Sequence record: PP430346
Source: Escherichia phage vB_EcoM-LTH02
Strand: one strand, 5' to 3'
Length of the DNA stretch: 64,000 nucleotides
Shown here: positions 2,106 to 62,140 of the stretch, one piece after another
How the letters are laid out: the number at the start of each line of letters is the position of its first letter
Numbering within the stretch: position 1 is the first letter of the stretch
Notes under the pieces: generated by a model
Seen by the model: only the letters and a program-made list of their open reading frames with translations
What the model was told of the DNA's origin: nothing
Database searches by the model: none
Program-made: the position numbers and the translations under genes

Positions 2106-3452
2106 ATGAGTTCGAATATCTTCAGACTTGCTGATAGATTATTCAACCAACCTTTACTAGCCACTGAATCATTAGCTCACTCAGCAGCAACTTATGTGAA
2201 TAACAGATTGCTGGGTGATGTCCAAGCAGCAGTAAACTTTGATAAACCCAAAGGTGAAGCAAGAAGTCTTTTAAAAGTAAAAGATGACATTGCTATTATC
2301 CCTATTATGGGTGGTTTAACTCATCGTATGACATTCATTGATGCAATGTGTACAGGTGGTCTAAGCTCTTATGAAGGTTTACGTAGAGGCTTTGACGAAG
2401 CTTTAGCAGATGAGTCAATCAAGACTATTGTTCTGCATATTGATTCTGGTGGTGGTGAAGCTTCAGGTTGCTTTGAATTAGCACGTCACATTATGGCTTC
2501 AAGAGGCCAAAAGAAAATTATTGCTTATGTAGATGAGTTCGCTTGTTCCGCTGCATATGCTCTTGCATCTTCTGCTGAAGAAATTATTGCATCACCAGAT
2601 GCAGATGTTGGTTCTATTGGTGTAATCATGGTTCATCAGGAATTAACTAAGGCATTTGAAAAGAATGGCGTAACAATTAACGTCATCAAAGCTGGTGAGT
2701 TTAAAGGTATGGGTTCACCATTCCAAGCACTTTCAGAAGAAAGCAAAGAAAGACTTCAAAAGAGAATTAATGATACCTACGCAACCTTTACAGGTTTTGT
2801 AGCCGAATCTCGTAATCTCTCTGAAGAAGCTGTAAAGAATACTGAGGCGAATGTTTATTCTGCTCAGGAAGCTCTTGAACTTGGTTTAATTAACTCAATC
2901 ATGTCTCAAGATGATTTCTTAAATTACTTACAAGGTTCTGAAGAGGCTCCTGTAAGTTTAAACGTTAACAATTCAGGTGAAGAAATGACTGAACAAGAAA
3001 AGCAAGAACTAGAAGCTTTGCGTCTTCAGGTTGCTCAAATGAAAGCTAAAGAACAGGAAGCTGCTTTGTCAGATTTGACTAATAAGATTTCTGCTTCTGC
3101 TGAAGCTTTTGGATTTGATGCAAAAGAAGCTGCAACGACTATTTTAGGTGCTGGTCTTGATAACCCTCTGAGTGTTCTGTTTATGAATGCTATGGAAGGT
3201 GCTAACCAGAAACTTAATGAAACTATCGCATCCCATGCTTCTGCAATGGAAGAAAAAGAATCAGAGATTACCAAGCTGAAAGAAACTGCTGGTGCTGTTC
3301 TTGAACATTCCAACGCTATGGAAGAAATGGGTAATGACGGCGAAGCTGATTTGGTTGAAGAAGAAAAAGAACCAGCTAAGAATGCTTCCGAAGACACCGC
3401 TGAACAACGCAAACTGGCTCTCCAGAATGCTCTAAAATCTCTTATCAAATAA
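2106..3452 (+). CDS. Prohead protease (S49/ClpP-fold) with C-terminal scaffold-like domain
   Basis: Segments GGGEASGCFELARH and AYVDEFACSAAYALAS resemble the Ser-protease core of SppA/ClpP-type phage prohead proteases; C-terminal ~150 aa is E/A/K-rich and coiled-coil-like; sits between portal and capsid. Confidence 0.6.
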   Translation: MSSNIFRLADRLFNQPLLATESLAHSAATYVNNRLLGDVQAAVNFDKPKGEARSLLKVKDDIAIIPIMGGLTHRMTFIDAMCTGGLSSYEGLRRGFDEALADESIKTIVLHIDSGGGEASGCFELARHIMASRGQKKIIAYVDEFACSAAYALASSAEEIIASPDADVGSIGVIMVHQELTKAFEKNGVTINVIKAGEFKGMGSPFQALSEESKERLQKRINDTYATFTGFVAESRNLSEEAVKNTEANVYSAQEALELGLINSIMSQDDFLNYLQGSEEAPVSLNVNNSGEEMTEQEKQELEALRLQVAQMKAKEQEAALSDLTNKISASAEAFGFDAKEAATTILGAGLDNPLSVLFMNAMEGANQKLNETIASHASAMEEKESEITKLKETAGAVLEHSNAMEEMGNDGEADLVEEEKEPAKNASEDTAEQRKLALQNALKSLIK

Positions 3453-34070: not shown

Positions 34071-34814
34071 ATGAGTAGTATTATCGCATTTACTGGAAAG
34101 GCACGTTCTGGAAAAGATACCTCATGCTCTATTGTTAAGAATATTCTAGAAGATGAGTATGGCTACAATGTTGCAGTAATGGCCTATGCAGACAATCTTA
34201 AGCTATCTGCATCAAAGATATTTGACTTGACGTGGAATGACCTGTACGGTGAAACTAAAGAGACTCCACAGGTTTTTGATTTATCATACTCTGAACTTAT
34301 GCCTAAAGTTACAGAAGCTATGGAGTTTACCTTCAGAGATGAACGTTACCATATGGACTTCAAGCTTATATCAGAGTTAACCGGACGATTAATCATGGAA
34401 CTTAAGAAGGTAGCTAAACCGACTCTATTGACACGTCTAGGGTTTAGTAAAAAGTATAAATTCTCGTCAAGGCAAATTCAACAGATTTGGGGTACTGAAG
34501 TTATCCGTAAAGTTATGGGTGACAAATTCTGGGCTAAAGACCTTGAAAAACGAATGGCTCGCTTCTTTGAATCTTGTTCACTTATGAATCAAGAGGGTGT
34601 TGTTTTAATCAGTGACTTAAGGTTTGACTCTGAAGCTGAGTGGCTGAGTAGATTTGCACACCAGACTATTGAAGTAAAAAGAGACAATGTGGACAAGGTT
34701 TCATCACATGTTTCAGAAAATGGAATTTCTACCAAATATGCGCGTGACATTATCCATAATAATGGTACTCTTGCAGACCTTGAAAGTAAGCTAAGAGCTA
34801 TCCTGAAAATTTAA
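34071..34814 (+). CDS. Deoxynucleoside monophosphate kinase-like P-loop kinase
   Basis: N-terminal Walker A FTGKARSGKDT closely resembles the T4 gp1 dNMP kinase start (SGVKRSGKDT); GGGAGA RBS. Confidence 0.6.
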   Translation: MSSIIAFTGKARSGKDTSCSIVKNILEDEYGYNVAVMAYADNLKLSASKIFDLTWNDLYGETKETPQVFDLSYSELMPKVTEAMEFTFRDERYHMDFKLISELTGRLIMELKKVAKPTLLTRLGFSKKYKFSSRQIQQIWGTEVIRKVMGDKFWAKDLEKRMARFFESCSLMNQEGVVLISDLRFDSEAEWLSRFAHQTIEVKRDNVDKVSSHVSENGISTKYARDIIHNNGTLADLESKLRAILKI

Positions 34815-39944: not shown

Positions 39945-40175
39945 ATGTTTAACAAAAGTAAAGCTGTGAGTCATGTAGCAAAGGTTGACAGCAAGATTGA
40001 AGAACTTGAGCGCATTCTTGCAAATGCCAGAGAGTCAATAATTAAAGAAGTTGAAGCTGTTGAATCTCAAATGCAGCACCTAATGCTTAAACGTCAAGAG
40101 TTACGTGAGCATCTGGAATATATTGAAACACGAGAGCTAAAAGTTAATAGATTTTTAAGGAGTCCGAATGTTTAA
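39945..40175 (+). CDS. Small coiled-coil protein (track start 39930 is TTG; ATG at 39945 preferred)
   Basis: RBS GAGAGAGA upstream of the ATG at 39945. Confidence 0.35.
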   Translation: MFNKSKAVSHVAKVDSKIEELERILANARESIIKEVEAVESQMQHLMLKRQELREHLEYIETRELKVNRFLRSPNV

Positions 40176-40923
40176 CTCAAGAGAATCAGTAAAAAACTGG
40201 AATCTTCGTTGCGGAAACACCCAAAAGCAACCTTACAGTGATGAGTATTGGGAATCTTTGAAATCCCAGTCTCTGTGTATGCTTGAAGAAGCAAAAGAGC
40301 TTGTAAAAGCAATTGAAGAGAAAGACCCCATTGAGACACTGGATGCTCAGGCAGATTTGCAATATGTTCTTGACGGTCTGATTTATCTGTCACAACATGA
40401 CCACAATGGTGCTATGGAAGCTGTTTGCCATAATAATGACCTGAAGTACACAGATGACTATGAAGAAGCTTTAAAGCGTCTTGCAGATGTTGAGAAGCGT
40501 ACTGGTCAAGAGTGTATCATCAGAATGTCAGTGGTTGATGGTAAAGAGTGGTATGCGATTGTCCGTGCAGCCGATGGGAAGATTATGAAGCAATCAAATC
40601 TCCCTAAAGTACAGCTTGGTGAATACATTGTAGAGCTTGAAAGCCAAGAACTTTTTGTGGTAGTATCTGAGACATGCGTTATCTGCAAAGGTATTGTAGG
40701 TAGCTTAAAGGATTTGGGTGTAGATGGTTTTGTAGAAGTTAATCCAATTACCTCTAAAGCAGATAAAGATTTCTGTAAAGAGAATGGACTATGGATTGCA
40801 GATATTGTCTACTATGATGGTGAGCAGTTCCATGTAACCTCATACCCGAAACTGAATTATGATGCTAATAACCTGAAGTGCTGGTTAAAAGGGGTTGGTT
40901 ATAATGGATTCACAGAACATTAA
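40168..40923 (+). CDS. Protein with N-terminal MazG-like NTP pyrophosphohydrolase motif
   Basis: LEEAKELVKAIEEKDPIETLDAQADLQYVLDGL resembles the EExxE...E/D-x-x-D all-alpha MazG metal-binding helices. Confidence 0.35.
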   Translation: MFNSRESVKNWNLRCGNTQKQPYSDEYWESLKSQSLCMLEEAKELVKAIEEKDPIETLDAQADLQYVLDGLIYLSQHDHNGAMEAVCHNNDLKYTDDYEEALKRLADVEKRTGQECIIRMSVVDGKEWYAIVRAADGKIMKQSNLPKVQLGEYIVELESQELFVVVSETCVICKGIVGSLKDLGVDGFVEVNPITSKADKDFCKENGLWIADIVYYDGEQFHVTSYPKLNYDANNLKCWLKGVGYNGFTEH

Positions 40924-45711: not shown

Positions 45712-47856
45712 ATGAACAAAGTACAGATTATTAAAAAGAATGGCTCACTTGAAGAACCTGATATCAAAAAAGTTTTAGCAGCAGTAACTAAGTCAGCTAA
45801 CAGGGTTGGGTATAAAGAACTTCCACCAGATGTTACCCAAGCTCTTGAGTCAGCATTTATGAGGATTCTGGTAAAGTCCACTAAGCAGAATAATTTGCTC
45901 ATCTCGGTAAATGACATTCACAGTATTGTTGAAGGTGCTTTGGCAGAAGTCAACCACGAGATTTACGAGTCTTACTCAACATATAGAAATTACCGTAAAG
46001 AGGTTGCTCAAAATTGGGATGAGCTTTACCAAAAGACTAAAGACACACTCTTCTTAGGTGACCGTGAAAATGCTAACTTTGACAGCAGTTTAATTTCTAC
46101 AAAAGGTTCAATTATTCGTGGCTATCTGACTAAAGAAATCTTTAAACAATACCATTTAACACCAGAGGAACTCGAAGCCATTGAAAAAGGGTTTATCTAC
46201 ATCCATGACTTAAGAGACCTAATTTTTGGTGGTATCAACTGTTGCCTGTTTGACATCGGTAAAGTACTGAAAGGTGGCTTTGAAATGTCTGGCATTGAAT
46301 ACTGTGAACCGAAGTCTGTGCTGTCAGCCTTACAGGTTATTGGTGATGTAGTTCTTTCAGCAACTGCACAGCAATTTGGTGGATTTACTTTAGCAGAGAT
46401 TGATAAGGTGCTTGTACCGTATGCTAAGAAGTCTCTACGCTATCATGCTGAGAAAGCAGCATCTTACGGTATTCCTAAAGAACATTACCATAACTATGTC
46501 ATGGAGCAGCTACAGATTGAATTAACTCAAGGCTTCCAGTCACTAGAGATGAAGCTAAATACTGTACCTTGTAGCCGTGGTGATTTCGCATTCACAACTT
46601 TAACATTTGGTTTACTTGACTCAGATATGTCTAATGAAGACAACCGACTACAATACATGATTGCAAACACTATTCTTGATGTTCGCATGAATGGACAAGG
46701 TAAGAGCAAGAAGCCTGTTGTATTCCCTAAGCTGGTTTATATTCATGACCAGAAGAGACACGATGAGAATATCTGTCAAGGTCAACTGTACAGTAAAGCT
46801 ATTGATTGTTGCTCTAAAGCTATGTATCCAGATTTCTTAAGTGTATCTGGTCATGGTGCTGTAGCAGAGGCTTTTGAGCGTTCTGGCAAGGTAATTTCAC
46901 CGATGGGTTGCAGAGCTTTCTTATCCCCATATCTTAACGAGAATGGAGAAGAGTTCTACGTTGGTCGTGCTAACATTGGTGCTGTATCTTTGAACTTACC
47001 AATGATTTACCAGTATTCTAAAGAGAGTGGTTTAGATTTCTGGAAAGAGCTTGATAAGTACCTAGAGATGATTCGCAGCTTCCACAAGAAACGCTACGAG
47101 ATGATTGCTAATATGCCAGCAAGTTCTAACCCTCTTGCATTCACACAAGGTGGTCTGTACAAAGGGACTAAGAAGCCTACTGACAAGGTTGGTTGGGATA
47201 TCGTGAAGTCTTTCACAGCTTCTTTTGGGGTTACTGCTCTTGATGAACTATCTGTTCTTGCTGAGGGTAAACGACTTCATGAAGTTGGAAGCTGTAGTTT
47301 TGCATACGATGTTCTGGCATACATTAACATGAAAACTGAAGAGTTTAAGAATGAAGATGGCTTCTTATATGCGGTATATGGCACTCCAGCAGAGTCATTG
47401 TGTGGAACTCAGTTAAAACAGTTCAGAGATATGTTTGGCGTTATCAAAGGCGTTTCTGATAAGGAATATTTTACAAACAGTTTCCATATGAATGTTGCAG
47501 CAGATATCTCACCATTTGAGAAGCAGGACTTAGAAGAGCCATTCTTCCATATCTGTAGAGGCGGCAGAATCCAGTATGTGAGGGTAGCTAACCCAGAAAA
47601 CTTACCAGCACTTAAAAGTTGTATTACAAGAGGGATGTTGAAAGGCTTTTATCAGGGACTTAACTTTGACTTAGCAATCTGCGAACATTGTGGCAACAGA
47701 CCAAAGGCTGATGTTGAAGAATGTGAGGTTTGCCATTCACATGACATCTCTGTGATTAACAGAGTGTGTGGGTATCTTGGGTGGACTAAGATTAAAGGTG
47801 AATCCCGAATGAATGATGCAAAAATTGCTGAGATTCGTGACAGGGTTTCTATGTAA
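45712..47856 (+). CDS. nrdD: Anaerobic ribonucleoside-triphosphate reductase (class III)
   Basis: C-terminal glycyl-radical motif RVCGYLG preceded by zinc-ribbon cysteines (CEHCGN...CEVCHS). Confidence 0.8.
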   Translation: MNKVQIIKKNGSLEEPDIKKVLAAVTKSANRVGYKELPPDVTQALESAFMRILVKSTKQNNLLISVNDIHSIVEGALAEVNHEIYESYSTYRNYRKEVAQNWDELYQKTKDTLFLGDRENANFDSSLISTKGSIIRGYLTKEIFKQYHLTPEELEAIEKGFIYIHDLRDLIFGGINCCLFDIGKVLKGGFEMSGIEYCEPKSVLSALQVIGDVVLSATAQQFGGFTLAEIDKVLVPYAKKSLRYHAEKAASYGIPKEHYHNYVMEQLQIELTQGFQSLEMKLNTVPCSRGDFAFTTLTFGLLDSDMSNEDNRLQYMIANTILDVRMNGQGKSKKPVVFPKLVYIHDQKRHDENICQGQLYSKAIDCCSKAMYPDFLSVSGHGAVAEAFERSGKVISPMGCRAFLSPYLNENGEEFYVGRANIGAVSLNLPMIYQYSKESGLDFWKELDKYLEMIRSFHKKRYEMIANMPASSNPLAFTQGGLYKGTKKPTDKVGWDIVKSFTASFGVTALDELSVLAEGKRLHEVGSCSFAYDVLAYINMKTEEFKNEDGFLYAVYGTPAESLCGTQLKQFRDMFGVIKGVSDKEYFTNSFHMNVAADISPFEKQDLEEPFFHICRGGRIQYVRVANPENLPALKSCITRGMLKGFYQGLNFDLAICEHCGNRPKADVEECEVCHSHDISVINRVCGYLGWTKIKGESRMNDAKIAEIRDRVSM

Positions 47857-49690: not shown

Positions 49691-50011
49691 ATGAGCAAAG
49701 TTTATAACACTCGTAAATTACAGATTTTCGTACTGTGCCAGTTTATGGCTAAAGAGTATAACTTTTATTACTGTGGCACAGGATTCATTAGTGATGATGA
49801 CGGTTCATACCTCCCATTCAAAGAGGCTGTAAAACTCTTCAATGAAGAGAAAAGCTCTAAGAAAGATATTGAAAAGGTTAAGCTAACCTACAGCAAGAAA
49901 GATAAGAAGATTATCTGCCTAGATAACTTTGTAAAAGTTACTGGAGAAGCAAAAGAGTTTATGGATGAGAGTGAGATTTCATTCACAAGCATCTTGAAAG
50001 TAGCTCAGTAA
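49691..50011 (+). CDS. Hypothetical protein
   Basis: 106-aa ORF followed by hairpin and T-run. Confidence 0.35.
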   Translation: MSKVYNTRKLQIFVLCQFMAKEYNFYYCGTGFISDDDGSYLPFKEAVKLFNEEKSSKKDIEKVKLTYSKKDKKIICLDNFVKVTGEAKEFMDESEISFTSILKVAQ

Positions 50012-50024
50012 ACAGATACTATAA

Positions 50025-50053
50025 GGGGACTGTAAAGGTTCCCTTTTTATTTT
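50025..50053 (+). terminator. Candidate terminator
   Basis: Short stem GGGGA/TTCCC followed by TTTTTATTTT; weaker than the others. Confidence 0.35.
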
Positions 50054-50062
50054 GGAGATAAA

Positions 50063-50578
50063 ATGTATCTGTCAAACCTGAAACGTTCGGCTGCAATGTC
50101 AGTTCTAAGACTCAGCTTTGAGGAACGTCAAGAGTTCATTGACTCCCACCAATACGACCCTTCTAACTCAAATCATATGGTTCTCTGGAATCGTGAGAGT
50201 ACTCGTGAAAGAGCACTATTCCGCTATTACCCACACTACACTATAGATAACCTGTATGAATGTTTTGTTGTGAAGAACACCATTACAGTTCTCAATAAAC
50301 TTTGCAGATACACAGGTAGTCAATCCTTCACATTAGGTCACCACAAGCCTGTTACAAAAGGTGGTGAACATCACTGCGCAAACTGGTTTATCCAAACTAA
50401 AGCTGATAACCAGAAGCAAGGAGATAGCCTTCTAAGTACTCCTAAGATGACCTATGAAGAGCAAGAGAAATATATCAAAAATAATATGCCAGATGTGCTT
50501 GACAACAACTATACAGATTTGGCAATATCTCTCCTGTTGAAGTTTGAGACAGTTTATAGGGCAACTTACAATGGCTAA
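50063..50578 (+). CDS. HNH endonuclease-like protein
   Basis: GHHKPVTKGGEHHCANWFIQTKADNQKQGD fits the HNH His-His...Asn...Asn core. Confidence 0.55.
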   Translation: MYLSNLKRSAAMSVLRLSFEERQEFIDSHQYDPSNSNHMVLWNRESTRERALFRYYPHYTIDNLYECFVVKNTITVLNKLCRYTGSQSFTLGHHKPVTKGGEHHCANWFIQTKADNQKQGDSLLSTPKMTYEEQEKYIKNNMPDVLDNNYTDLAISLLLKFETVYRATYNG

Positions 50579-50849
50579 AGAGAAGTGGGAGATTCTACCA
50601 TTAGTGAGTGAAGGTGGTAACGGCTGTGAGATGTACATGATACGTGGTCATGTCCCAGAACCAATTGCACTTGAGATGGTAAACAATTTTACAGATGGCT
50701 CTTACAAAGATTTAGGAGAGCCAACTATAAAGCATCAATGGGTCAAACCTGTACCAGACAGCACAGGTAACTGTAGTGTACTTTATCACGTTGTAGACCC
50801 TGCAAAATGCAAATCTGCAATGGCAGTAACAAACATAACCTTTGATTGA
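50571..50849 (+). CDS. Hypothetical protein (track start 50544 is TTG)
   Basis: ATG at 50571 overlaps the HNH stop. Confidence 0.3.
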   Translation: MAKEKWEILPLVSEGGNGCEMYMIRGHVPEPIALEMVNNFTDGSYKDLGEPTIKHQWVKPVPDSTGNCSVLYHVVDPAKCKSAMAVTNITFD

Positions 50850-50860
50850 GAGAGAAAACT

Positions 50861-51742
50861 ATGAAAACTGTTATTGAAGTCGTTGTCACCGCACAAGAGA
50901 AATTCTTCCACACAGAAAAATTTAATATCATCCAATTCCCATCTGGAGAAATTGGTGGAAACTTCTCTGAAGATTTTGTTAAGTTTACTGAGCGTAATGC
51001 TGGTAATATTGACAATGTTATACTTACTGTGCAGGGATATGATAAAGATACACTGTTTGCATTAGCTTTGGCTAAGGATGCCGTTGACAGCCTTGTTCCA
51101 CATAAATCAGCGATGAAAACCGTTGTTTTCGGGTTCTTACCGAATGCTCGATATGACCGCCATATGTTCAAAGGCGATTCAGCAGCACTAAAAGCTTTTG
51201 CCAACCTCGTTAATGCAATGGGCTTTGATGCAGTATGTGCTCTTGACCCTCACAGTAATGTTGCAGAAAACTTATTTAAGTGCTTCCAAAGCATGAAGCA
51301 AAAAGATGTGGCAGCACACTTCGCAAGTGACCCACGCATTGATTTCTTGGTAGCCCCAGATGCAGGTGCAGCTAAGAAGACTGAAGAGACTGCTAAAGAG
51401 GTGGATAAACCATACATCACAATGTCTAAAGTGCGTAACCTTAAGACTGGTGAAATTACTGGTATGCGAATCCTTGATGATGTTGATTTGACCGATAAAA
51501 CTGTCATGATTCTCGATGATATCTGTGATGGTGGTCGAACCTTCATAGAGGCAGCTAAACATCTTCGTGAAGCAGGTGCAAAACGTGTGGAACTCTATAT
51601 AACTCATGGCATTTTCTCTAAAGGTGTTGAAAACTTACTTGACAATGGTATTGACCATATCTACACTACAAACTCTTTAGGAGAAGCTAAAGACCGTGGC
51701 TTAACACATTATGCCCAAGTTACTGTAATTACCATTGATTGA
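50861..51742 (+). CDS. prs: Ribose-phosphate pyrophosphokinase-like enzyme (Prs homolog; candidate ADPR-pyrophosphate synthetase)
   Basis: PRPP-binding loop motif ILDDICDGGRT and overall Prs-like length; ATG at 50861 with purine-rich RBS (track start 50846 is TTG). Confidence 0.75.
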   Translation: MKTVIEVVVTAQEKFFHTEKFNIIQFPSGEIGGNFSEDFVKFTERNAGNIDNVILTVQGYDKDTLFALALAKDAVDSLVPHKSAMKTVVFGFLPNARYDRHMFKGDSAALKAFANLVNAMGFDAVCALDPHSNVAENLFKCFQSMKQKDVAAHFASDPRIDFLVAPDAGAAKKTEETAKEVDKPYITMSKVRNLKTGEITGMRILDDVDLTDKTVMILDDICDGGRTFIEAAKHLREAGAKRVELYITHGIFSKGVENLLDNGIDHIYTTNSLGEAKDRGLTHYAQVTVITID

Positions 51743-51751
51743 AACTTTATA

Positions 51752-51772
51752 GGGGCTTCAAAGCCCCATTTT
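51752..51772 (+). terminator. Rho-independent terminator
   Basis: GGGGCT-TCAA-AGCCCC followed by ATTTT. Confidence 0.5.
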
Positions 51773-51787
51773 GAGAGAGATTAAAAG

Positions 51788-53569
51788 ATGACTAAATCAC
51801 TTTATGCAGTACCAGCAGGTTTAAATGCAGATGCTTACAAATCTGGTCACATTTACCAGTATCCTAGTGCAACAGAATACTTGATGTTCAACCTAACACC
51901 ACGTAGTGATAAATGGTTTAACAGCCCTTTATCAATTGACGGTGTAGTGGCTTTTGGTATTCAACGTTTTGTTAAAGATTACCTGATAGACCACTGGAAT
52001 GCCACCTTCTTTGAACGTGACAAAAAAGAAGCAATTGACGAAATCTTAGAAGTCATGAACGGTGTTCTGGGTAAAGATGCTATTGGTCGAGAACATTGGG
52101 AAGCACTCCATGACTTAGGTTATCTACCAGTTGAAGTATACGCTGTAGAAGAAGGCACAGTTGTTCCTATGCGTGTACCAATGATTGTCTTCCAGAATAC
52201 TGTTTCAGGTTTCCATTGGGTAGCTGGGTATCTGGAAGATGCTTTCTCTGCTGAGATTTGGAAGGCTTGTACCATTGCAACTATTGCATTGCACTACAAA
52301 CGTATCTGTAAGAAGTGGTCTGACCTTACTTGTGACAACGACTTGCATTTGCCTTATCAGTGCCATGACTTTGCTATGCGTGGTATGTCCGGCTTTACCG
52401 ATGACGCATTTAACGCTGTAGGCCACTTAACCAGCTTTAAAGGAACTGATAGCTTCCCTGCTGTGTATACAGCTAAACGCATCTATGGACAGTCCTACCC
52501 AATCTCTGATATTGGTAGCTCTGTACCAGCCACTGAACACTCTGTAATGTGTGCAAACATTGCTTGGGAAGGTGGTAGTGAGTTGATTGAAGAAGAAAGA
52601 CGCTTTAAAGGTGAGTTACAAACCTTCCGTCGTTTCTTAACAGAAACTTACCCAACTGGTATTGCAAGTGTTGTTTCAGACACTTATAACTTCTGGAGAA
52701 CTGTATCAGTCATATTACCAGAACTCCGTAAAGAGATTATGGAACGTAATGGCAAACTAGTAATTCGTCCTGACTCTGGAGACCCTGTACATATTGTCAC
52801 AGGCTATAAAGCAATCCATTTAGAGTGTGCTAAAAAGGCTTATTACGAACACTTAAGCAAGCTGGAAGCCAGCGACACAATGTTGAATGCTGTTCTGAAC
52901 ATGAAGCTTGAAAACATCAATTATGGTATTGCTGGATGGCTACTGTCAGAAGGCTACGAAATGGTTGTTGACAGAGAAGACTTTGAAGTTGCTGATACAG
53001 TGCTGTTGAAAAACGCTTATATGGTTGGTTCTGCAAACGTTGTAACACGTCCTGTAGCGGAGATTGATGGAGCTATTAAGACACTGTATAACATCTTTGG
53101 GGGGGCTATCAACTCTAAAGGCTTTAAAGTACTGGATGAGCATATTGGACTTATTTATGGCGACTCTATCACGTTGGAACGTGCAAATGAAATACTGAAG
53201 CGTTTGTATGAAATGGGTTTTGCAAGCTCTAACGTAGTGTTTGGTGTAGGTTCTTACACTTACCAGTACATGACTCGTGACACCTTTGCATTTGCTGTCA
53301 AAGCAACCCTTGCAAGCATTGGTGGTAAAGAGATTATGCTTGCAAAAGACCCTAAAACAGATAGTGGTGTTAAGAAGTCTGCTTTTGGTGGTGTAGCACC
53401 TATGTGGGATGGTGAAAATCTGAAAGCTGTAGATGGCTATGGGTTCCAGAGCTTTGCAGATGCACTTGAACATCCAGCTTGTGCTTTACGTCTAGTCTTT
53501 AGCGACTCTGAGCAGTTCGGCTACACAACTCTTGGTGATATTCGAAATAATATTGACAAGCAGCTTTAA
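51788..53569 (+). CDS. nadV: Nicotinamide phosphoribosyltransferase-like enzyme (NAMPT/NadV homolog)
   Basis: Type II phosphoribosyltransferase motif RPDSGDP plus NAMPT-like length; immediately downstream of the Prs-like gene. Confidence 0.75.
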   Translation: MTKSLYAVPAGLNADAYKSGHIYQYPSATEYLMFNLTPRSDKWFNSPLSIDGVVAFGIQRFVKDYLIDHWNATFFERDKKEAIDEILEVMNGVLGKDAIGREHWEALHDLGYLPVEVYAVEEGTVVPMRVPMIVFQNTVSGFHWVAGYLEDAFSAEIWKACTIATIALHYKRICKKWSDLTCDNDLHLPYQCHDFAMRGMSGFTDDAFNAVGHLTSFKGTDSFPAVYTAKRIYGQSYPISDIGSSVPATEHSVMCANIAWEGGSELIEEERRFKGELQTFRRFLTETYPTGIASVVSDTYNFWRTVSVILPELRKEIMERNGKLVIRPDSGDPVHIVTGYKAIHLECAKKAYYEHLSKLEASDTMLNAVLNMKLENINYGIAGWLLSEGYEMVVDREDFEVADTVLLKNAYMVGSANVVTRPVAEIDGAIKTLYNIFGGAINSKGFKVLDEHIGLIYGDSITLERANEILKRLYEMGFASSNVVFGVGSYTYQYMTRDTFAFAVKATLASIGGKEIMLAKDPKTDSGVKKSAFGGVAPMWDGENLKAVDGYGFQSFADALEHPACALRLVFSDSEQFGYTTLGDIRNNIDKQL

Positions 53570-53584
53570 AAGTATATGATAAGA

Positions 53585-53605
53585 GGCTCCTACGGGAGCC
53601 TTTTT
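53585..53605 (+). terminator. Rho-independent terminator
   Basis: GGCTCC-TACG-GGAGCC followed by TTTTT. Confidence 0.6.
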
Positions 53606-53622
53606 AATTTCTGGAGAAGATT

Positions 53623-53958
53623 ATGAAAATCAAAGAAATGAACATCAACATTGTCTTAGAAGAACGCTGGGAGAACATCAAGAAGCCTGAAAATGGTCAT
53701 AAGTTCCTCAACAAAATCTTAGTAGCAGCTAAAGAAGAACTGACTGGCAAGGTTGCAGCAGCAATCACAATAAAGGTGTGTGTAAAGGGTCTTCCAGACA
53801 ATCACCAATTTGCACTTGACGAGTTTAAAGAAAGCTTCTACAATCCAAACAAACAGATGCTTGAAAGTAACTTTGCAGTGTCTACAAGTATCGTCCATGA
53901 CAGAAGCTTTATCCTTTACAAGAATATGAGAGGTGAGTCATGCAAGCATATTGGATAG
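53623..53958 (+). CDS. Hypothetical protein
   Basis: 111-aa ORF with GGAGAAG RBS. Confidence 0.35.
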   Translation: MKIKEMNINIVLEERWENIKKPENGHKFLNKILVAAKEELTGKVAAAITIKVCVKGLPDNHQFALDEFKESFYNPNKQMLESNFAVSTSIVHDRSFILYKNMRGESCKHIG

Positions 53959-54116
53959 AAATTTTACTGTCACTTGGTAGTGTAGCAGTGCTTGTTTACC
54001 TTCTTTGTAAGTACTTTGCAGAGCACAAAAAATGTGAATACTGCAACGGAGAGGGGTACATAAGGGCAGGTTGTTGCCCTATGTGTGGTGGTTCTGGTAA
54101 AATGTTTAATAAGTGA
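53940..54116 (+). CDS. Small membrane zinc-ribbon protein (58 aa) not in the supplied track
   Basis: ATG at 53940 after GAGGTGAG; N-terminal hydrophobic helix then CEYCNG...CPMCGG. Confidence 0.35.
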   Translation: MQAYWIEILLSLGSVAVLVYLLCKYFAEHKKCEYCNGEGYIRAGCCPMCGGSGKMFNK

Positions 54117-54144: not shown

Positions 54145-56511
54145 ATGCGCATGGTAAACGACCACGCAGAAGTGATTAAGAGTTCAACTTCTTTAGAGAC
54201 GTCTCAAGCACAGATTACAATGACGCCTGAAATGTTCAGTCTTTTGAGTTCTGGTGTATACACCTTTAAAGAAAGGGCAGTGATTCGTGAACTGTCATGT
54301 AACGCAGTAGATGCTCAGAAAGAAGCTGGAAAAGAGAATATCCCGTTCCATGTGCATTTGCCTACTCGTTTTGAGCCTTACTTTGAAGTTCGTGATTTTG
54401 GAACTGGATTGACTCATGATAAAGTTATGAGTTTGTACCTAAATTACGGGGCTTCTACGAAGAATGACTCTAATGACTACATTGGTGCAATGGGTATCGG
54501 TTCAAAATCTCCATTTGCAATTGCTCAGTCATTCACAGTATCTAGTTATGTTGATGGTGTTGTTAATAAGTACTCTGTTTACCTTGAGAATGGTATCCCT
54601 CAAGTAACTAAGCTGACCACCAACCCAACAAAAGAACCTAATGGTTTAGCTGTACGTGTAGCAGTTGCTGACCATCGTATCTCAAAGTTCTTTGAAGAAG
54701 CTGGTCACGTATACTCATACTTTGCTGTAAAACCGGAAAGTAATATCGAGTATGACGATGTATTAGCAGATATGAATGTCATTGCCCGTGAAGAAGGTGT
54801 TTATGATGCCATGATTCATAAGCATAGCTGGCGTTCAAGCAGCAATAGAACAGAGTTTAACGTGGTTATGGGTAATATTGCCTACCCAGTTAATATGGAG
54901 GCATTACTTGGTGATGATTTCTTCAAAGTCTTGCCAGAATTTTTCCGTAGGAGCGTAGACCTTGTAAACATCTACATGCCTATTGGCTCAGTTGCTATTG
55001 CAGCTTCTCGTGAAGCATTGCAGATGAATGATACGACAAAAAATGTTATCATTGAGGCTACTAAAAAGATAACTGAAGCGATTACAAAGGATGTTATCAA
55101 GAAAGTTAATAGTCAACCTACACTCATGGATGCTGCACAGGCTTATGCTGAGTTACGCTTGAACTCACGAGAGATGTTTAATGCTGTGTGTCCAAAGCTA
55201 GAGTGGGGAGGTGTTAAACTTGATTCTCTGGAAGAAGAATTACTAAACATTCGTCGTGGAATTATCTACGCAGAAGACGGCTCAGTCATTTACGAACGTG
55301 ACGGTAAAGGCAATATTAAGGTTGATAGGAACGGGAACAATATACCTAAAGTAGACTATCTTTATGACCCAGTTGCTTATGTCAAGTTCAACTCTTTAGA
55401 GAGTAAGATTCGTGCAACATCGCTTTCCTACACTCAAGAGGCAAGTATGTTCAATATCTTTGGCGCAATGCGTAAAAGCCAAATTGAACAGTTTTTGTTT
55501 GTTATAAACGACCGTCGCAATAAAAATGGTACTGAGAAGACTGTAGGACGCAATCAGATTCTGCGTGGTGCATGTCGAGACTATGCCAGTGAGTCTAGTC
55601 TGTTTCACAGATACAATGGTATCGTCTTTGTATTCTCGACTGAAAAAGAGTTAGACAACCTAATCAATCTGCACAAACTTGATAAAAGCTTGTTAAAGAT
55701 TGTGAAGATGTCTGATAAGGAACATCATTATCAGCGCAAAGAAGCTGTAAGAGGTGTTGTAAAACTCTGGAAAGCTGTTCCAGCAGAAGGTGTAGCTTCA
55801 TACAAAGAGGTGTCAGAAGACTTAGATACGATTGAAGAGCCTCAGCTTTATATTAAGGCAGTAGGCGACACAGTTGATGGCGAATGTTTTTGCTCATCTC
55901 CAGAAGATGTAGCTAAGTCAGTTGCCAATGTCATTGGAAAGACAGTTTATGTTTTCCGAAAAGCAAATTGGAAAAAGATACCAGAAGACTGGATTGAAGT
56001 AGATGAGAAGCTCTTGAACGATAGCTTAACTGATGTTCACTGGATTAATCATAACAGGTATATGACACGTATCTATATGAATGGTGTCCTAGACCTGACA
56101 AGCAGTTGGATTATTGCCAGAAACTTTACGTTCAATAACAGGAAGATTTCTCGTGGTTATTGTTATTCACGAGATACAAACAAAACTATCTTCTTAGAAG
56201 GTAATGAAGATGCTGTTGAGGCAATGTTTGGTAAAATCCAATACGTTGCTGCACCGTTTGCATACACCTACACTATTAGTAGGTTGCAAACTTTGAAAGA
56301 TTGCCTTGACAATGATACAAAGCTGTACAAGAAAATTAAGAAAGCTGGTGACCGTATGGTCATCAAGGTGACAAACTATCTTTCAAAAAGAAAACAAGAA
56401 AACTTCTTGCTTTCTCATTTAGATTGGAATAAAGTGTCACCTATTGAAGTGAGTAAGTTCTTAGGCTTTGATGTGAAGTGTGTTCCAGAAGGGACTACAA
56501 TTTACGATTAA
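54145..56511 (+). CDS. rIIA: rIIA-like protein (GHKL ATPase fold)
   Basis: Bergerat-fold motifs: N-box ELSCNAVDA, G1 box VRDFGTGL, G2 box GAMGIGSKS; followed directly by an rIIB homolog. Confidence 0.7.
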   Translation: MRMVNDHAEVIKSSTSLETSQAQITMTPEMFSLLSSGVYTFKERAVIRELSCNAVDAQKEAGKENIPFHVHLPTRFEPYFEVRDFGTGLTHDKVMSLYLNYGASTKNDSNDYIGAMGIGSKSPFAIAQSFTVSSYVDGVVNKYSVYLENGIPQVTKLTTNPTKEPNGLAVRVAVADHRISKFFEEAGHVYSYFAVKPESNIEYDDVLADMNVIAREEGVYDAMIHKHSWRSSSNRTEFNVVMGNIAYPVNMEALLGDDFFKVLPEFFRRSVDLVNIYMPIGSVAIAASREALQMNDTTKNVIIEATKKITEAITKDVIKKVNSQPTLMDAAQAYAELRLNSREMFNAVCPKLEWGGVKLDSLEEELLNIRRGIIYAEDGSVIYERDGKGNIKVDRNGNNIPKVDYLYDPVAYVKFNSLESKIRATSLSYTQEASMFNIFGAMRKSQIEQFLFVINDRRNKNGTEKTVGRNQILRGACRDYASESSLFHRYNGIVFVFSTEKELDNLINLHKLDKSLLKIVKMSDKEHHYQRKEAVRGVVKLWKAVPAEGVASYKEVSEDLDTIEEPQLYIKAVGDTVDGECFCSSPEDVAKSVANVIGKTVYVFRKANWKKIPEDWIEVDEKLLNDSLTDVHWINHNRYMTRIYMNGVLDLTSSWIIARNFTFNNRKISRGYCYSRDTNKTIFLEGNEDAVEAMFGKIQYVAAPFAYTYTISRLQTLKDCLDNDTKLYKKIKKAGDRMVIKVTNYLSKRKQENFLLSHLDWNKVSPIEVSKFLGFDVKCVPEGTTIYD

Positions 56512-56590: not shown

Positions 56591-57700
56591 ATGACTACTA
56601 AAACTAAAGCACAGATTGACGCAGAAATTTACAAACTGGTTAAAGAAGGCAAGCTGACTAAAACAGCTATTGCACAGAAGTTCAATACTTCAACCCGTTC
56701 AGTTGGTCGTGCTGTAGAGCGTCATGAAGCAACCTTAAAAGGTAAGAAAAAGGCAACTTCTAAGCCAGCTACAAAGACTTTGAAGCAAGTTGCTAAGTCA
56801 GTTAAAAAGAAAGCTGGCAAACCAGTTGAAAAGGTTGTTAAAGACACTGTACAGAAAGTTCCAGTAAATAAACTACACGAAGCTATGCAGAATGGTGACC
56901 GAATTGAGTATATGATTACTGGCGACTCTGTTATCATGACTTTCGGTGCAGATTCTGAAATCGTTGAGTCTACCCATCCGAACTACAAAGAAATTGTAAT
57001 GGCTGTTGTAGGTGGTGAGTACAAGAAAGCTTTCGAACTGATGAACATTCGTAAGTCTATCGAAAACTTCACTCAGGGTGCTATCACAATCAAAGGTGAT
57101 AAGTTGTTCTACGGTGCTGTTGAGATGCGTTCTACTCTGGTTGACCGCATTCTTCACATGATGAAGACTGGTGATAAAGGTTTTGAACGACTTGTAATGT
57201 TCTTCGAAAAACTGATGGAAAACCCATCTAAAGACTCTGTAGAACAACTTTGGGGATTTGTATCTCACCTTGATGTTGAAATTGATGAAGAAGGTTACAT
57301 CATTGGTTGGAAGAAAGTCTCTACTCGTGAAGGTAAGCTTGTTGACTCCCACACCTACAAAGTACCTAATGATTTGGGTAACATTGTAGAAATGCCACGT
57401 TGGATGGTTGATAACAACCGTAACGTGACTTGCTCTCAGGGTCTTCATGTTGGTGCTTGGGATTATGTTCGTTACTTCTCAGGCGATACAATCCTGAAGG
57501 TTCGTGTCCATCCACGAGATGTTGTATCTGTTCCGACTGATTACAACGATATGAAGATGCGTTCATCCCGTTATGAAGTTGCAGCAATCGTTGATAATCA
57601 GCGTAAAGTACTGAAAGCGTGGGATGGTAAGACTGAGGCTTTGCATGTCATCGTTGGCACTGCTGGTGAACTCATCTCCCAACGTAAACGTGAAATCTAA
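56591..57700 (+). CDS. rIIB: rIIB-like protein
   Basis: C-terminal half (LFYGAVEMRSTLVDRIL...HPRDVVSVPTDYNDMKMRSSRYEV) closely parallels T4 rIIB (LFYQNIELRSGLVDRIL...HPRDVVSIPIDYNDAKMRTCQYEV). Confidence 0.75.
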   Translation: MTTKTKAQIDAEIYKLVKEGKLTKTAIAQKFNTSTRSVGRAVERHEATLKGKKKATSKPATKTLKQVAKSVKKKAGKPVEKVVKDTVQKVPVNKLHEAMQNGDRIEYMITGDSVIMTFGADSEIVESTHPNYKEIVMAVVGGEYKKAFELMNIRKSIENFTQGAITIKGDKLFYGAVEMRSTLVDRILHMMKTGDKGFERLVMFFEKLMENPSKDSVEQLWGFVSHLDVEIDEEGYIIGWKKVSTREGKLVDSHTYKVPNDLGNIVEMPRWMVDNNRNVTCSQGLHVGAWDYVRYFSGDTILKVRVHPRDVVSVPTDYNDMKMRSSRYEVAAIVDNQRKVLKAWDGKTEALHVIVGTAGELISQRKREI

Positions 57701-61354: not shown

Positions 61355-62140
61355 ATGGGTATTGTAAAAATTATCAATGGTGATATCTTTGACGCATTTG
61401 ATAAAGGTAAGTTTGACATTATTGGTCATGGTTGCAACTGTATGAATTTCATGGGTGCAGGTATTGCAGCAACTATTTCTAAGCGTTATCCAAAAGTGTA
61501 TGATACTGATACAGAAGTTTACCTGTTTGCAGGTGGCATTCGTCACAAACCCTGTGAAAATTTACTAGGTAATTTCTCTGTAGCACGTTTAAAACAAGGT
61601 CGTATAGCTAACCTTTACACCCAACTTCATACTGGTAAAGATGCCCGATACAGTGCTTTAGAGTCATCTTTGAAGCAGCTTAACAGATACTGTGAAGTTA
61701 ATCAGTTGAAGAAAGTTGGCTTACCTATGATTGGTGCAGGTATTGGTGGGTTGGACCCTCAAGCCGTCACAGTTATCATCAATCAGGTTATGAAGAGTGT
61801 AGATGTCTATCTATATGTCTATGAAGGAGAAATGTACCACAAGTTACGCTCAGGTTGGAAGAACTACTGTGAACCAGAATACTTTGCAGGTGTAGTTGTG
61901 TTCACAGATGATACAGTTACCCTCTTCAGACGAAGAAAAGGTAAGATACATCAAAGTAACCCTCCGGTTGAGAAGATGTCTCTGAGTAACGCTCTAGTTA
62001 CCCACCTGTCGAAGAGCAATCACAGGATAGCCGTAACATTTGGCAGTGATGCAGATACATATATCTATGCAAGAACTGATGAGGATATCGAGACGGTCTT
62101 CTCTTCACCGGAAGTTACCTTCTTAGACGCAAAGAACTAA
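61355..62140 (+). CDS. Macro-domain protein (ADP-ribose binding/hydrolase fold)
   Basis: GDIFDAFDKGKFDIIGHGCNCMNFMGAGIAATI parallels the macro GDIT...IVNAAN...GGGVxGAI segment; LPMIGAGIGGLDP parallels the AFPAISTGIYGYP ribose-binding loop. Confidence 0.5.
   Translation: MGIVKIINGDIFDAFDKGKFDIIGHGCNCMNFMGAGIAATISKRYPKVYDTDTEVYLFAGGIRHKPCENLLGNFSVARLKQGRIANLYTQLHTGKDARYSALESSLKQLNRYCEVNQLKKVGLPMIGAGIGGLDPQAVTVIINQVMKSVDVYLYVYEGEMYHKLRSGWKNYCEPEYFAGVVVFTDDTVTLFRRRKGKIHQSNPPVEKMSLSNALVTHLSKSNHRIAVTFGSDADTYIYARTDEDIETVFSSPEVTFLDAKN

What the first reader, a model, noticed from the sequence alone, without database searches (positions are those of the whole stretch)
50861..53569. Prs-like + NAMPT-like gene pair: candidate phage NAD+ reconstitution module (NARP1-type counter-defence)
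A ribose-phosphate pyrophosphokinase homolog (PRPP-binding loop ILDDICDGGRT) sits immediately upstream of a nicotinamide phosphoribosyltransferase homolog (RPDSGDP motif), each with its own terminator. The phage otherwise encodes no NAD biosynthesis, so a two-gene unit is more plausibly a self-contained pathway. From established knowledge, this pairing matches the phage NAD+ reconstitution pathway in which a Prs-like enzyme pyrophosphorylates ADP-ribose and a NAMPT-like enzyme joins it to nicotinamide to regenerate NAD+, countering NAD+-depleting immunity (Thoeris, DSR, SIR2-type systems). That function here is inference from homology and synteny.
Basis: partly seen in the sequence, partly recalled or inferred. 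Interest (0 to 1): 0.85.

Follow-up and report, generated by a model that had tools for sequence, protein, structure and literature searches.

The report
Known phage NAD+ rebuilding gene pair
These two adjacent phage genes are near-identical copies of the published NARP1 pair (Adps and Namat), which rebuilds NAD+ from the fragments left by NAD+-destroying bacterial defences, so the reading is right but not new.

Summary
Window 50861-51742 (+) encodes a 293-aa Prs-like protein and 51788-53569 (+) a 593-aa NAMPT-like protein, with the quoted motifs present.

The window is a Felixounavirus. The two proteins are 95% and 97% identical, without gaps and at equal length, to bas63_0079 and bas63_0080 of phage Bas63. 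That is the operon in which NARP1 was discovered. Its deletion sensitises Bas63 to SIR2-HerA, and ADPR-PP appears in infected cells.

The catalytic Lys of Adps is present. So are the Namat catalytic core and both parts of the adenine "selectivity clamp" (GSYTYQYMTRD; K42/W43). An AlphaFold2 model matches the Namat crystal structure best.

One detail is only partly right: a strong terminator follows Namat, while only a short hairpin with four U lies between the genes.

Side observations:
- An ~90-aa, confidently folded insertion subdomain in this Namat has no recognisable fold relative.
- A Macro-domain gene 7.8 kb downstream (61355-62140) is homologous to the NARP1-associated phosphatase Adpp. 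Published surveys scanned only ±2 genes and would have missed it.

The parts
50861..51742 (+). adps: ADP-ribose pyrophosphokinase (ADPR-PP synthetase), Prs fold, 293 aa
   Evidence: ORF. Pfam PF00156 and PF14572. 95% identical over the full length to Bas63 bas63_0079. K190 aligns with the SpbetaL1 Adps catalytic K162.
51752..51767 (+). Short GC hairpin (6 bp, UCAA loop) followed by AUUUU in the 45-nt gap between the genes. Probably a weak or partial terminator, or an RNA-stability element.
   Evidence: Fold: -12.6 kcal/mol for the 45-nt spacer, z -2.4. Not called by the terminator scan. Annotated as a terminator in AYO145A.
51788..53569 (+). namat: nicotinamide ADPR-transferase, NAMPT fold, 593 aa
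   Evidence: ORF. Pfam PF04095 and PF18127. 97% identical to Bas63 bas63_0080. Catalytic and clamp residues conserved. AF2 model pLDDT 93.7. Best PDB match is the Namat crystal structure 9w5x, TM 0.95.
52799..53071 (+). Lineage-specific insertion subdomain inside Namat (aa ~338-428), lying between the RPDSGDP strand and the GLIYGDS strand. It is absent from the crystallised SpbetaL1 Namat.
53581..53604 (+). Strong intrinsic terminator closing the unit
   Evidence: 10-bp stem, -17.2 kcal/mol, followed by UUUUUAAUUU.
50023..50045 (+). Upstream intrinsic terminator. Together with 53581-53604 it bounds a four-gene unit.
   Evidence: Annotated at the same place in AYO145A.
50063..50849 (+). Two small upstream genes inside the same terminator-bounded unit. 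They are homologues of bas63_0077 (171 aa, 50063-50578) and bas63_0078 (92 aa, 50571-50849). This is context, not part of the enzymatic pathway.
   Evidence: 97% identical to bas63_0077. PHROGs 3500 and 4726, function unknown. Bas63 gp77 is reported as a counter to retron Ec67.
61355..62140 (+). Unlinked Macro-domain protein (261 aa). It is a candidate accessory enzyme only and is not shown to belong to the pathway.
   Evidence: Pfam Macro 5.3e-7. 29% identical (E 5e-16) to the Macro gene lying between adps and namat in Vibrio phage Luma, which is 98.7% identical to the validated Adpp of phage Gary. Both fall in phrog_335.

Best explanation
The pair is the two-enzyme NAD+ reconstitution pathway 1 (NARP1) of a Felixounavirus.

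Proposed mechanism:
1. An NAD+-depleting defence (SIR2, TIR or SEFIR type) cleaves NAD+ into ADP-ribose and nicotinamide.
2. Adps (50861-51742) uses ATP to pyrophosphorylate the free ribose C1'' of ADP-ribose, giving ADPR-PP.
3. Namat (51788-53569) displaces that pyrophosphate with nicotinamide and regenerates NAD+ directly.
4. The NAD+ pool is held high enough for the phage to finish replication.

What is shown in the 95-97% identical Bas63 orthologues:
- The counter-defence phenotype.
- Partial rescue of NAD+ levels.
- Appearance of ADPR-PP in infected cells.
- Independence from host NMN salvage.

What is shown only with the SpbetaL1 homologues (31% and 46% identical to the window's proteins): the two reactions in vitro and the structural basis of ADPR-PP preference.

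That the window's own proteins do the same is inferred from orthology and conserved functional residues.
For: - Identity to the Bas63 NARP1 proteins is 95% and 97%, with no gaps and identical synteny.
- In Bas63, deleting genes 79-80 gives about 20-fold fewer plaques on SIR2-HerA and deeper NAD+ depletion. ADPR-PP (m/z 720.010) appears only with both the operon and the defence present. [quoted passage not shown]
- Single deletions of g79 or g80 give 1e4-1e6 lower plating on Sir2-HerA, restored by complementation.
- Adps K190 aligns with the catalytic K162 of SpbetaL1 Adps.
- Namat D15, Y17, F195, R198, D221, H251, R327, D329, G458, D459, G488, S489, T496, R497 and D498 match the NAD+-contacting residues of the crystal structure.
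- The clamp helix motif GSYTYQYMTRD fits the published Namat signature GSxPhixPhixPhiTRD, with aromatics at positions 3 and 7. True Nampts have GAQTYQRNTRD (H. ducreyi NadV) or GGALLQKVDRD (Xanthomonas).
- The clamp loop has K42-W43, the Bas63-type arrangement described in the paper.
- The AF2 model (pLDDT 93.7) is closest to Namat 9w5x (E 1.8e-53, TM 0.95), ahead of NadV and human NAMPT.
- All 120 best database homologues carry the Namat-type motif.
Against: - No enzyme assay exists for this protein pair. Even the Bas63 proteins 'did not purify well', so all in vitro chemistry comes from SpbetaL1.
- This Namat carries an ~90-aa insertion, a ~14-aa insertion after the catalytic His and a longer clamp loop. 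None of these is in the crystallised enzyme, so substrate preference has not been measured for this architecture.
- SpbetaL1 Namat can also make NMN from PRPP in vitro, so some Nampt-like activity is not excluded.
- Generic libraries (Pfam, PHROGs, NCBIfam) still score the pair as ordinary Prs and NAPRTase above their cut-offs.
Confidence: 0.93

Rival explanations
1. A conventional salvage booster. Gene 1 would be a true PRPP synthetase and gene 2 a true Nampt making NMN. The host's NadR or PncC would then finish NAD+ synthesis, giving a NARP2-like logic without a phage NMNAT.
For: Pfam, PHROGs and NCBIfam name them this way, above the curated cut-offs (TIGR01251 135 bits vs 113; NF006629 465 vs 405). 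SpbetaL1 Namat can make NMN from PRPP in vitro.
Against: [quoted passage not shown]
- ADPR-PP accumulates in vivo, and SpbetaL1 Adps gave no PRPP-type product.
- The adenine clamp residues that Nampts lack are present.
- No NMNAT is annotated in the Bas63 genome.
Confidence: 0.04
2. A nucleotide-pool module. The Prs-like enzyme would raise PRPP for phage nucleotide synthesis, alongside the neighbouring ribonucleotide reductases, with no role in counter-defence.
For: The pair lies just downstream of the nrdA/B/D/G genes, and thymidylate synthase, DHFR and dNMP kinase are also encoded in the window.
Against: - The genes are dispensable without a defence system but strongly needed on Sir2-HerA hosts.
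- The tight pairing with Namat (97% of Adps-clade genes) is not explained by PRPP supply.
Confidence: 0.02

Closest known systems
NARP1 of Escherichia phage JohannRWettstein (Bas63), genes bas63_0079 and bas63_0080 (Osterman et al., bioRxiv 10.1101/2024.02.11.579819; from my own knowledge, published in Nature in 2024)
   Same: The genes are orthologous:
- 95% and 97% protein identity.
- Equal lengths (293 and 593 aa).
- The same 45-nt spacer architecture and the same flanking genes (nrdG upstream, rIIA/rIIB downstream).
- All mapped catalytic and clamp residues are identical.
   Different: There are 14 and 18 amino-acid substitutions, none at mapped functional residues. The window lacks one small ORF that Bas63 has just downstream of namat: Bas63 has both bas63_0081 and bas63_0082 there, and the window has a single 111-aa ORF.
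NARP1 of Bacillus phage SPbetaL1 (biochemically and structurally characterised Adps and Namat; PDB 9w5w and 9w5x; PMC12774641)
   Same: The same two-gene order, the same fold, and the same catalytic residues and clamp logic.
   Different: - Only 31% (Adps) and 46% (Namat) identity.
- The window's Namat is 102 aa longer, through an ~90-aa insertion subdomain, a ~14-aa insertion after the catalytic His and a 4-aa longer clamp loop.
- It uses Lys42-Trp43 where SPbetaL1 uses Arg40.
NARP1-AP (Adps-Adpp-Namat) of Vibrio phage Gary (bioRxiv 10.64898/2026.01.28.702374)
   Same: Adps and Namat homologues are present. The window also encodes a Macro-domain protein of the same PHROG as Adpp.
   Different: In Gary and Luma the Macro gene sits between adps and namat. 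Here it is 7.8 kb away, carries a ~100-aa C-terminal extension and is only 29% identical, so no operon link exists.
NARP2 (Nampt plus bifunctional Nmnat/Nudix) of Vibrio phage KVP40
   Same: It includes a NAMPT-family enzyme and has the same goal of restoring NAD+.
   Different: NARP2 uses PRPP and goes through NMN, needs a phage NMNAT, and has no Adps. The window has Adps, a Namat-type clamp and no NMNAT detected.
Bacterial Prs (E. coli b1207) and Nampt/NadV (H. ducreyi 9ke8, Xanthomonas 7yqo, human NAMPT)
   Same: Shared folds and the core phosphoribosyl-transfer chemistry.
   Different: - 24% identity to E. coli Prs.
- The flexible-loop motif is SKVRN instead of DKRRPR.
- The PRPP loop is DDICDGGRT instead of DDMIDTGGT.
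- Nampts lack the aromatic clamp residues.

Membership tests
NARP1 - Adps | Prs-type fold (PF00156 / PF14572) | tested here: met
   E 8.7e-12 and 3.1e-9, both above the gathering scores. Prs structures are the best PDB sequence matches.
NARP1 - Adps | Belongs to the phage Adps clade, separate from cellular Prs. Bas63 Adps was one of the clade-defining queries. | tested here: met
   95% identity to Bas63 Adps. Only 24% to E. coli Prs, against 29-35% to the SPbetaL1, FADO and Luma Adps. I did not build a tree.
NARP1 - Adps | Namat homologue within 10 genes (true of 97% of the clade) | tested here: met
   namat starts 45 nt after the adps stop codon.
NARP1 - Adps | Catalytic Lys equivalent to SPbetaL1 K162 / B. 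subtilis Prs K197 | tested here: met
   K190 aligns with K162.
NARP1 - Adps | Converts ADPR + ATP to ADPR-PP and does not make PRPP | not testable with these tools
   Shown in vitro for SPbetaL1 Adps. ADPR-PP was seen in Bas63-infected cells.
NARP1 - Namat | NAMPT fold with conserved catalytic core (SPbetaL1 F189, R192, D215, R306, D308 and the catalytic His) | tested here: met
   F195, R198, D221, R327, D329 and H251. Pfam. Model and Foldseek.
NARP1 - Namat | [quoted passage not shown] | tested here: met
   GSYTYQYMTRD at aa 488-498, with Y490 and Y494. The last Phi is Met rather than the commoner Asn/Val, but this exact motif is the commonest among the 120 best homologues.
NARP1 - Namat | Selectivity-clamp loop with Arg, or Lys/Tyr plus a following stacking residue, after the TPR motif | tested here: met
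   TPR-SD-K42-W43, the Bas63-type arrangement described in PMC12774641.
NARP1 - Namat | Prefers ADPR-PP over PRPP and makes NAD+ directly | not testable with these tools
   Shown only for SPbetaL1 Namat.
NARP1 (system) | Loss sensitises the phage to NAD+-depleting defences | not testable with these tools
   Shown for Bas63, whose proteins are 95-97% identical.
NARP2 | Nampt without an adenine clamp, plus a phage NMNAT, and no Adps | tested here: not met
   Adps is present and the clamp is present. No NMNAT appears in the Bas63 annotation or among the 18 window proteins scanned. Not every ORF of the window was scanned.
NARP1-AP (with Adpp phosphatase) | Macro-domain gene inside or within two genes of the NARP1 operon | tested here: not met
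   The neighbours at 49691-50849 and 53623-54116 have no Macro domain. A homologous Macro gene exists 7.8 kb downstream.
NARP1 with RyDEP | RyR-domain (PF02026) gene in the NARP1 locus | tested here: not met
   No PF02026 hit in the eight neighbouring proteins scanned at E <= 1.

The most novel reading that the evidence does not exclude
Felixounaviruses may run a dispersed three-enzyme version of the pathway. The unlinked Macro-domain protein at 61355-62140 would dephosphorylate ADPR-1''-phosphate, or otherwise liberate ADPR from modified forms. This would feed Adps and Namat and extend protection to RES-type (aRES) NAD+ phosphorylases.

This protein belongs to the same PHROG as the validated phosphatase Adpp. 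Published surveys would have missed it because they scanned only two genes either side of NARP1.

A second unexplored element is the ~90-aa orphan-fold insertion subdomain in this lineage's Namat. It has never been assayed.
Probability: 0.2. Interest if true: 0.45.

Novelty: already known. Interest (0 to 1): 0.15.

Why it matters
NARP1 is an important counter-defence. It lets phages undo NAD+ depletion by SIR2-, TIR- and SEFIR-type systems using chemistry (ADPR-PP) not known before 2024. This window adds nothing to that story, because it is a close orthologue of the phage in which the pathway was found.

The practical value is in annotation. Pfam, PHROGs and NCBIfam still call these genes Prs and NAPRTase, so hundreds of Felixounavirus records, many of them phage-therapy candidates, are mislabelled.

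The two side observations are cheap, testable extensions of a known system:
- The insertion subdomain in Namat.
- The unlinked homologue of Adpp.

Tried and rejected
- **Accessory genes in the operon.** I looked for a Macro (Adpp) or RyR-domain (RyDEP) gene inside the operon and found none.
- **Named profiles.** I looked for a curated Adps or Namat model in NCBIfam release 20. None exists; only generic Prs and NAPRTase models hit.
- **NARP2.** I considered a NARP2 reading and rejected it: Adps is present, the clamp is present and no NMNAT is found.
- **Two transcription units.** I tested the idea of 'two separate terminators, hence two separate transcription units'. The intergenic hairpin is short, has only four U, and failed the scan. 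The discoverers treat the pair as one operon.
- **Insertion outside Namat.** I searched for the insertion sequence outside Namat genes in phage genomes. It occurs only inside Namat of Ounavirinae-type phages.
- **Function of the Macro protein.** PDB and NCBIfam hits point equally weakly to OARD1/TARG1 (5e-6), the DarG macrodomain (1.6e-14, far below its cut-off) and Poa1p (0.018). No specific activity can be assigned.
- **Not done.** I did not build an Adps/Prs tree. I did not scan every ORF of the window against Pfam.
Full report
**Observation.**
Window 50861-51742 (+) encodes 293 aa from the ATG; the mechanical ORF begins at a TTG 15 nt upstream. Window 51788-53569 (+) encodes 593 aa. The quoted motifs are present: ILDDICDGGRT at Adps aa 217-227 and RPDSGDP at Namat aa 327-333.

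Pfam gives Pribosyltran (8.7e-12) and Pribosyl_synth (3.1e-9) for the first protein. It gives NAPRTase (2.1e-33) and NAMPT_N (2.5e-5) for the second. PHROGs gives 4.6e-98 and 2.7e-200. Both genes are preceded by a GAGAGAG Shine-Dalgarno-like run. The antisense ORFs overlapping them lie against the uniform + strand coding direction of this region, and I treat them as shadows.

**What the window is.**
A megablast of 50700-53700 finds 257 phage records, 234 of them covering at least 80% of the query. Nearly all are Felixounavirus and relatives from Escherichia, Salmonella, Shigella and Citrobacter. The best is phage AYO145A at 97.6%.

The literature search showed that NARP1 was discovered in the BASEL phage Bas63 (JohannRWettstein), genes 79-80. 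Its accession, MZ501086, came from a second paper.

The Bas63 record has a 'ribose-phosphate pyrophosphokinase' of 882 nt and a 'nicotinamide phosphoribosyltransferase' of 1782 nt. These are exactly the window's lengths, in the same neighbourhood: nrdG upstream and rIIA/rIIB downstream. BLASTP gives 279/293 (95%) and 575/593 (97%) identity with no gaps. The window's pair is therefore an orthologue of the founding NARP1 operon.

**What is known about that operon.**
- Deleting genes 79-80 from Bas63 gives about 20-fold fewer plaques on SIR2-HerA hosts and deeper NAD+ depletion. [quoted passage not shown]
- Untargeted mass spectrometry found ADPR-pyrophosphate (m/z 720.010) only when both the operon and the defence system were present.
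- The Bas63 proteins did not purify well, so the homologues from Bacillus phage SPbetaL1 were used. Adps converts ADPR + ATP to ADPR-PP. Namat converts ADPR-PP + nicotinamide to NAD+. Namat can make NMN from PRPP but chooses ADPR-PP in competition. K162A (Adps) and R306G (Namat) kill the pathway.
- An independent knockout screen found that single deletions of g79 or g80 lower plating on Sir2-HerA by 1e4-1e6, with rescue by complementation. Effects on retron Ec86 and hhe were weaker.
- Crystal structures of SPbetaL1 Namat define an adenine 'selectivity clamp'. It consists of a variable loop after beta1 and a helix with the signature GSxPhixPhixPhiTRD.

**Residue-level membership test.**
I fetched SPbetaL1, FADO, Vibrio phage Luma and E. 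coli prs. I aligned them and mapped residues.

Adps K190 aligns with SPbetaL1 K162.

In Namat, every NAD+-contacting position is conserved or conservatively replaced:

| Element | Window residues |
|---|---|
| Nicotinamide and ribose contacts | D15, Y17, F195, R198, D221, A248, R327, D329 |
| Catalytic His | H251 |
| AMP-side contacts | G458, D459, S460 |
| Clamp helix | G488, S489, Y490, Y494, T496, R497, D498 |

The clamp helix reads GSYTYQYMTRD. The bona fide Nampts in the PDB read GAQTYQRNTRD (H. ducreyi NadV, 9ke8) and GGALLQKVDRD (Xanthomonas, 7yqo). The clamp loop is TPR-SD-K42-W43. This is the 'Lys followed by a stacking residue' arrangement that the structure paper describes for Bas63.

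An AlphaFold2 model built on 56 homologues has pLDDT 93.7 and pTM 0.91. Its best PDB matches are the Namat crystal structures (E 1.8e-53, TM 0.95 on the target), ahead of NadV and human NAMPT.

All 120 best homologues in the 5.8-billion-protein database carry a Namat-type motif. The window's exact motif is the commonest, in 31 of 120.

**Transcription signals.**
Strong intrinsic terminators lie at 50023-50045 and 53581-53604.

Between adps and namat there is only a 6-bp GC hairpin (51752-51767) followed by AUUUU. It failed my scan, but the annotators of AYO145A marked it as a terminator. I read it as a weak or partial terminator, or a stabilising hairpin. The discoverers treat the genes as one operon.

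The unit bounded by strong terminators holds four genes: homologues of bas63_0077 and bas63_0078, then adps and namat. Bas63 gp77 (97% identical) was reported as a counter to retron Ec67. That paper calls it GIY-YIG; my scans gave only a weak HNH-type PHROG hit.

**How this Namat differs from the characterised enzyme.**
It is 102 aa longer than SPbetaL1 Namat. Most of the difference is an insertion of about 90 aa (aa ~338-428) between the RPDSGDP strand and the GLIYGDS strand. There is also a ~14-aa insertion after the catalytic His and a 4-aa longer clamp loop.

- The structure paper, which aligned and modelled Bas63 Namat, does not discuss the large insertion.
- The insertion sequence occurs only inside Namat genes of 253 Ounavirinae-type records.
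- It is alignable across ~590-610-aa forms down to about 46% overall identity, for example in Yersinia, Pectobacterium and Salmonella phages.
- Other Namat lineages carry unrelated insertions at the same site. The spacer ranges from 48 to 128 aa.
- Modelled alone, it folds confidently (pLDDT 92.3, pTM 0.81) as a small alpha/beta subdomain.

The insertion is evidently compatible with function in Bas63. Its role is unknown and untested.

**Accessory genes.**
Two 2026 preprints describe genes inserted into NARP1 operons. One is a Macro-domain ADPR-1''-phosphate phosphatase (Adpp, giving NARP1-AP) that rescues the pathway from RES-type NAD+ phosphorylases. The other is an RyR-domain glycosidase (RyDEP) that converts cyclic ADPR signals to ADPR. 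Neither domain is found in the genes flanking the pair.

However, the ORF at 61355-62140 has a Macro domain (Pfam 5.3e-7); this gene is annotated 'putative phosphatase' in Bas63.
- Its first ~155 aa are 29% identical (E 5e-16) to the Macro gene lying between adps and namat in Vibrio phage Luma. That gene is 98.7% identical to the validated Adpp of phage Gary.
- Both fall in phrog_335 and share the same weak PDB neighbours.
- The published survey scanned only two genes either side of NARP1. It would not have counted this gene.

Caution is needed. The same family is present in about 2,700-3,000 phage records, including many T-even phages. From my own knowledge, phage T4 has no NARP1, so linkage to NARP1 is not implied. 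NCBIfam's closest model is the DarG macrodomain, well below its cut-off.

**Other context.**
The nearest non-phage homologues of this Namat (47% identical, 496 aa, from Klebsiella, Cronobacter and others) follow a Prs-like gene. They sit divergently from a NUDIX plus WHD_NrtR regulator gene, in a housekeeping chromosomal context. This fits earlier remarks that some bacteria carry NARP1 outside mobile elements.

**Verdict.**
The system is already known, and this very gene pair is essentially the type example. Confidence that it functions as NARP1 is 0.93. The remaining doubt is that no in vitro assay exists for the Felixounavirus-type proteins. Interest is low, at 0.15. The most novel reading not excluded is a dispersed NARP1-AP using the unlinked Macro protein, and/or a functional role for the insertion subdomain. 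I put its probability at about 0.2, with moderate interest if true.

Noticed in passing
window 61355-62140 (+): A 261-aa Macro-domain protein, annotated 'putative phosphatase' in Bas63. It is homologous (29% identity, E 5e-16, same phrog_335) to the NARP1-associated ADPR-1''-P phosphatase Adpp of Vibrio phages. It lies 7.8 kb from the NARP1 pair and has an extra ~100-aa C-terminal region with no Pfam domain of its own (it matches only phrog_335). Published surveys scanned only two genes either side of NARP1. A DarG-like or OARD1-like activity is equally possible.
   Followed up: partly
[not shown]
   Followed up: yes
window 50063-50578 (+): A 171-aa protein in the same terminator-bounded unit as NARP1, 97% identical to Bas63 gp77, which a knockout screen reported as a counter to retron Ec67. 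That paper calls it GIY-YIG. My scans gave only a weak HNH-type PHROG hit (8.7e-5) and no Pfam domain above threshold.
   Followed up: partly
window 54145-56511 and 56591-57700 (+): ORFs with the same lengths and positions as Bas63 rIIA and rIIB. These were reported as counters to the QatABCD defence, so the region around NARP1 looks like a cluster of counter-defence genes. I inferred identity to Bas63 from synteny only.
   Followed up: no
window 34071-34814 (+): A deoxynucleotide monophosphate kinase (Pfam DNMK, 5.4e-22). A phage dNMP kinase of this class is the trigger of the NAD+-depleting Kongming system, which NARP1 from SPbetaL1 was shown to neutralise. This phage may therefore carry both a trigger and the antidote.
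   Followed up: no
L008 4217-7491 (Klebsiella chromosomal contig): The closest non-phage Namat homologues (47% identical, 496 aa, Namat-type clamp motif) follow a 284-aa Prs-like gene. They sit divergently from a NUDIX plus WHD_NrtR regulator gene, between crp/prkB and kefB/slyD. This is a chromosomal NARP1-like pair beside a regulator of the ADP-ribose-responsive NrtR type.
   Followed up: partly
window 53570-53960, compared with L001 15455-16193: Bas63 has two small ORFs (bas63_0081 and bas63_0082) between namat and the small membrane-protein gene. The window has only one (53623-53958, 111 aa). The NrdD gene (45712-47856) appears as one continuous ORF here, whereas in Bas63 it is split by a homing-endonuclease insertion.
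   Followed up: no
window 40168-40923 (+): A 251-aa protein with a MazG/PRA-PH-type pyrophosphohydrolase domain (Pfam 6.4e-6). Its role is unknown.
   Followed up: no
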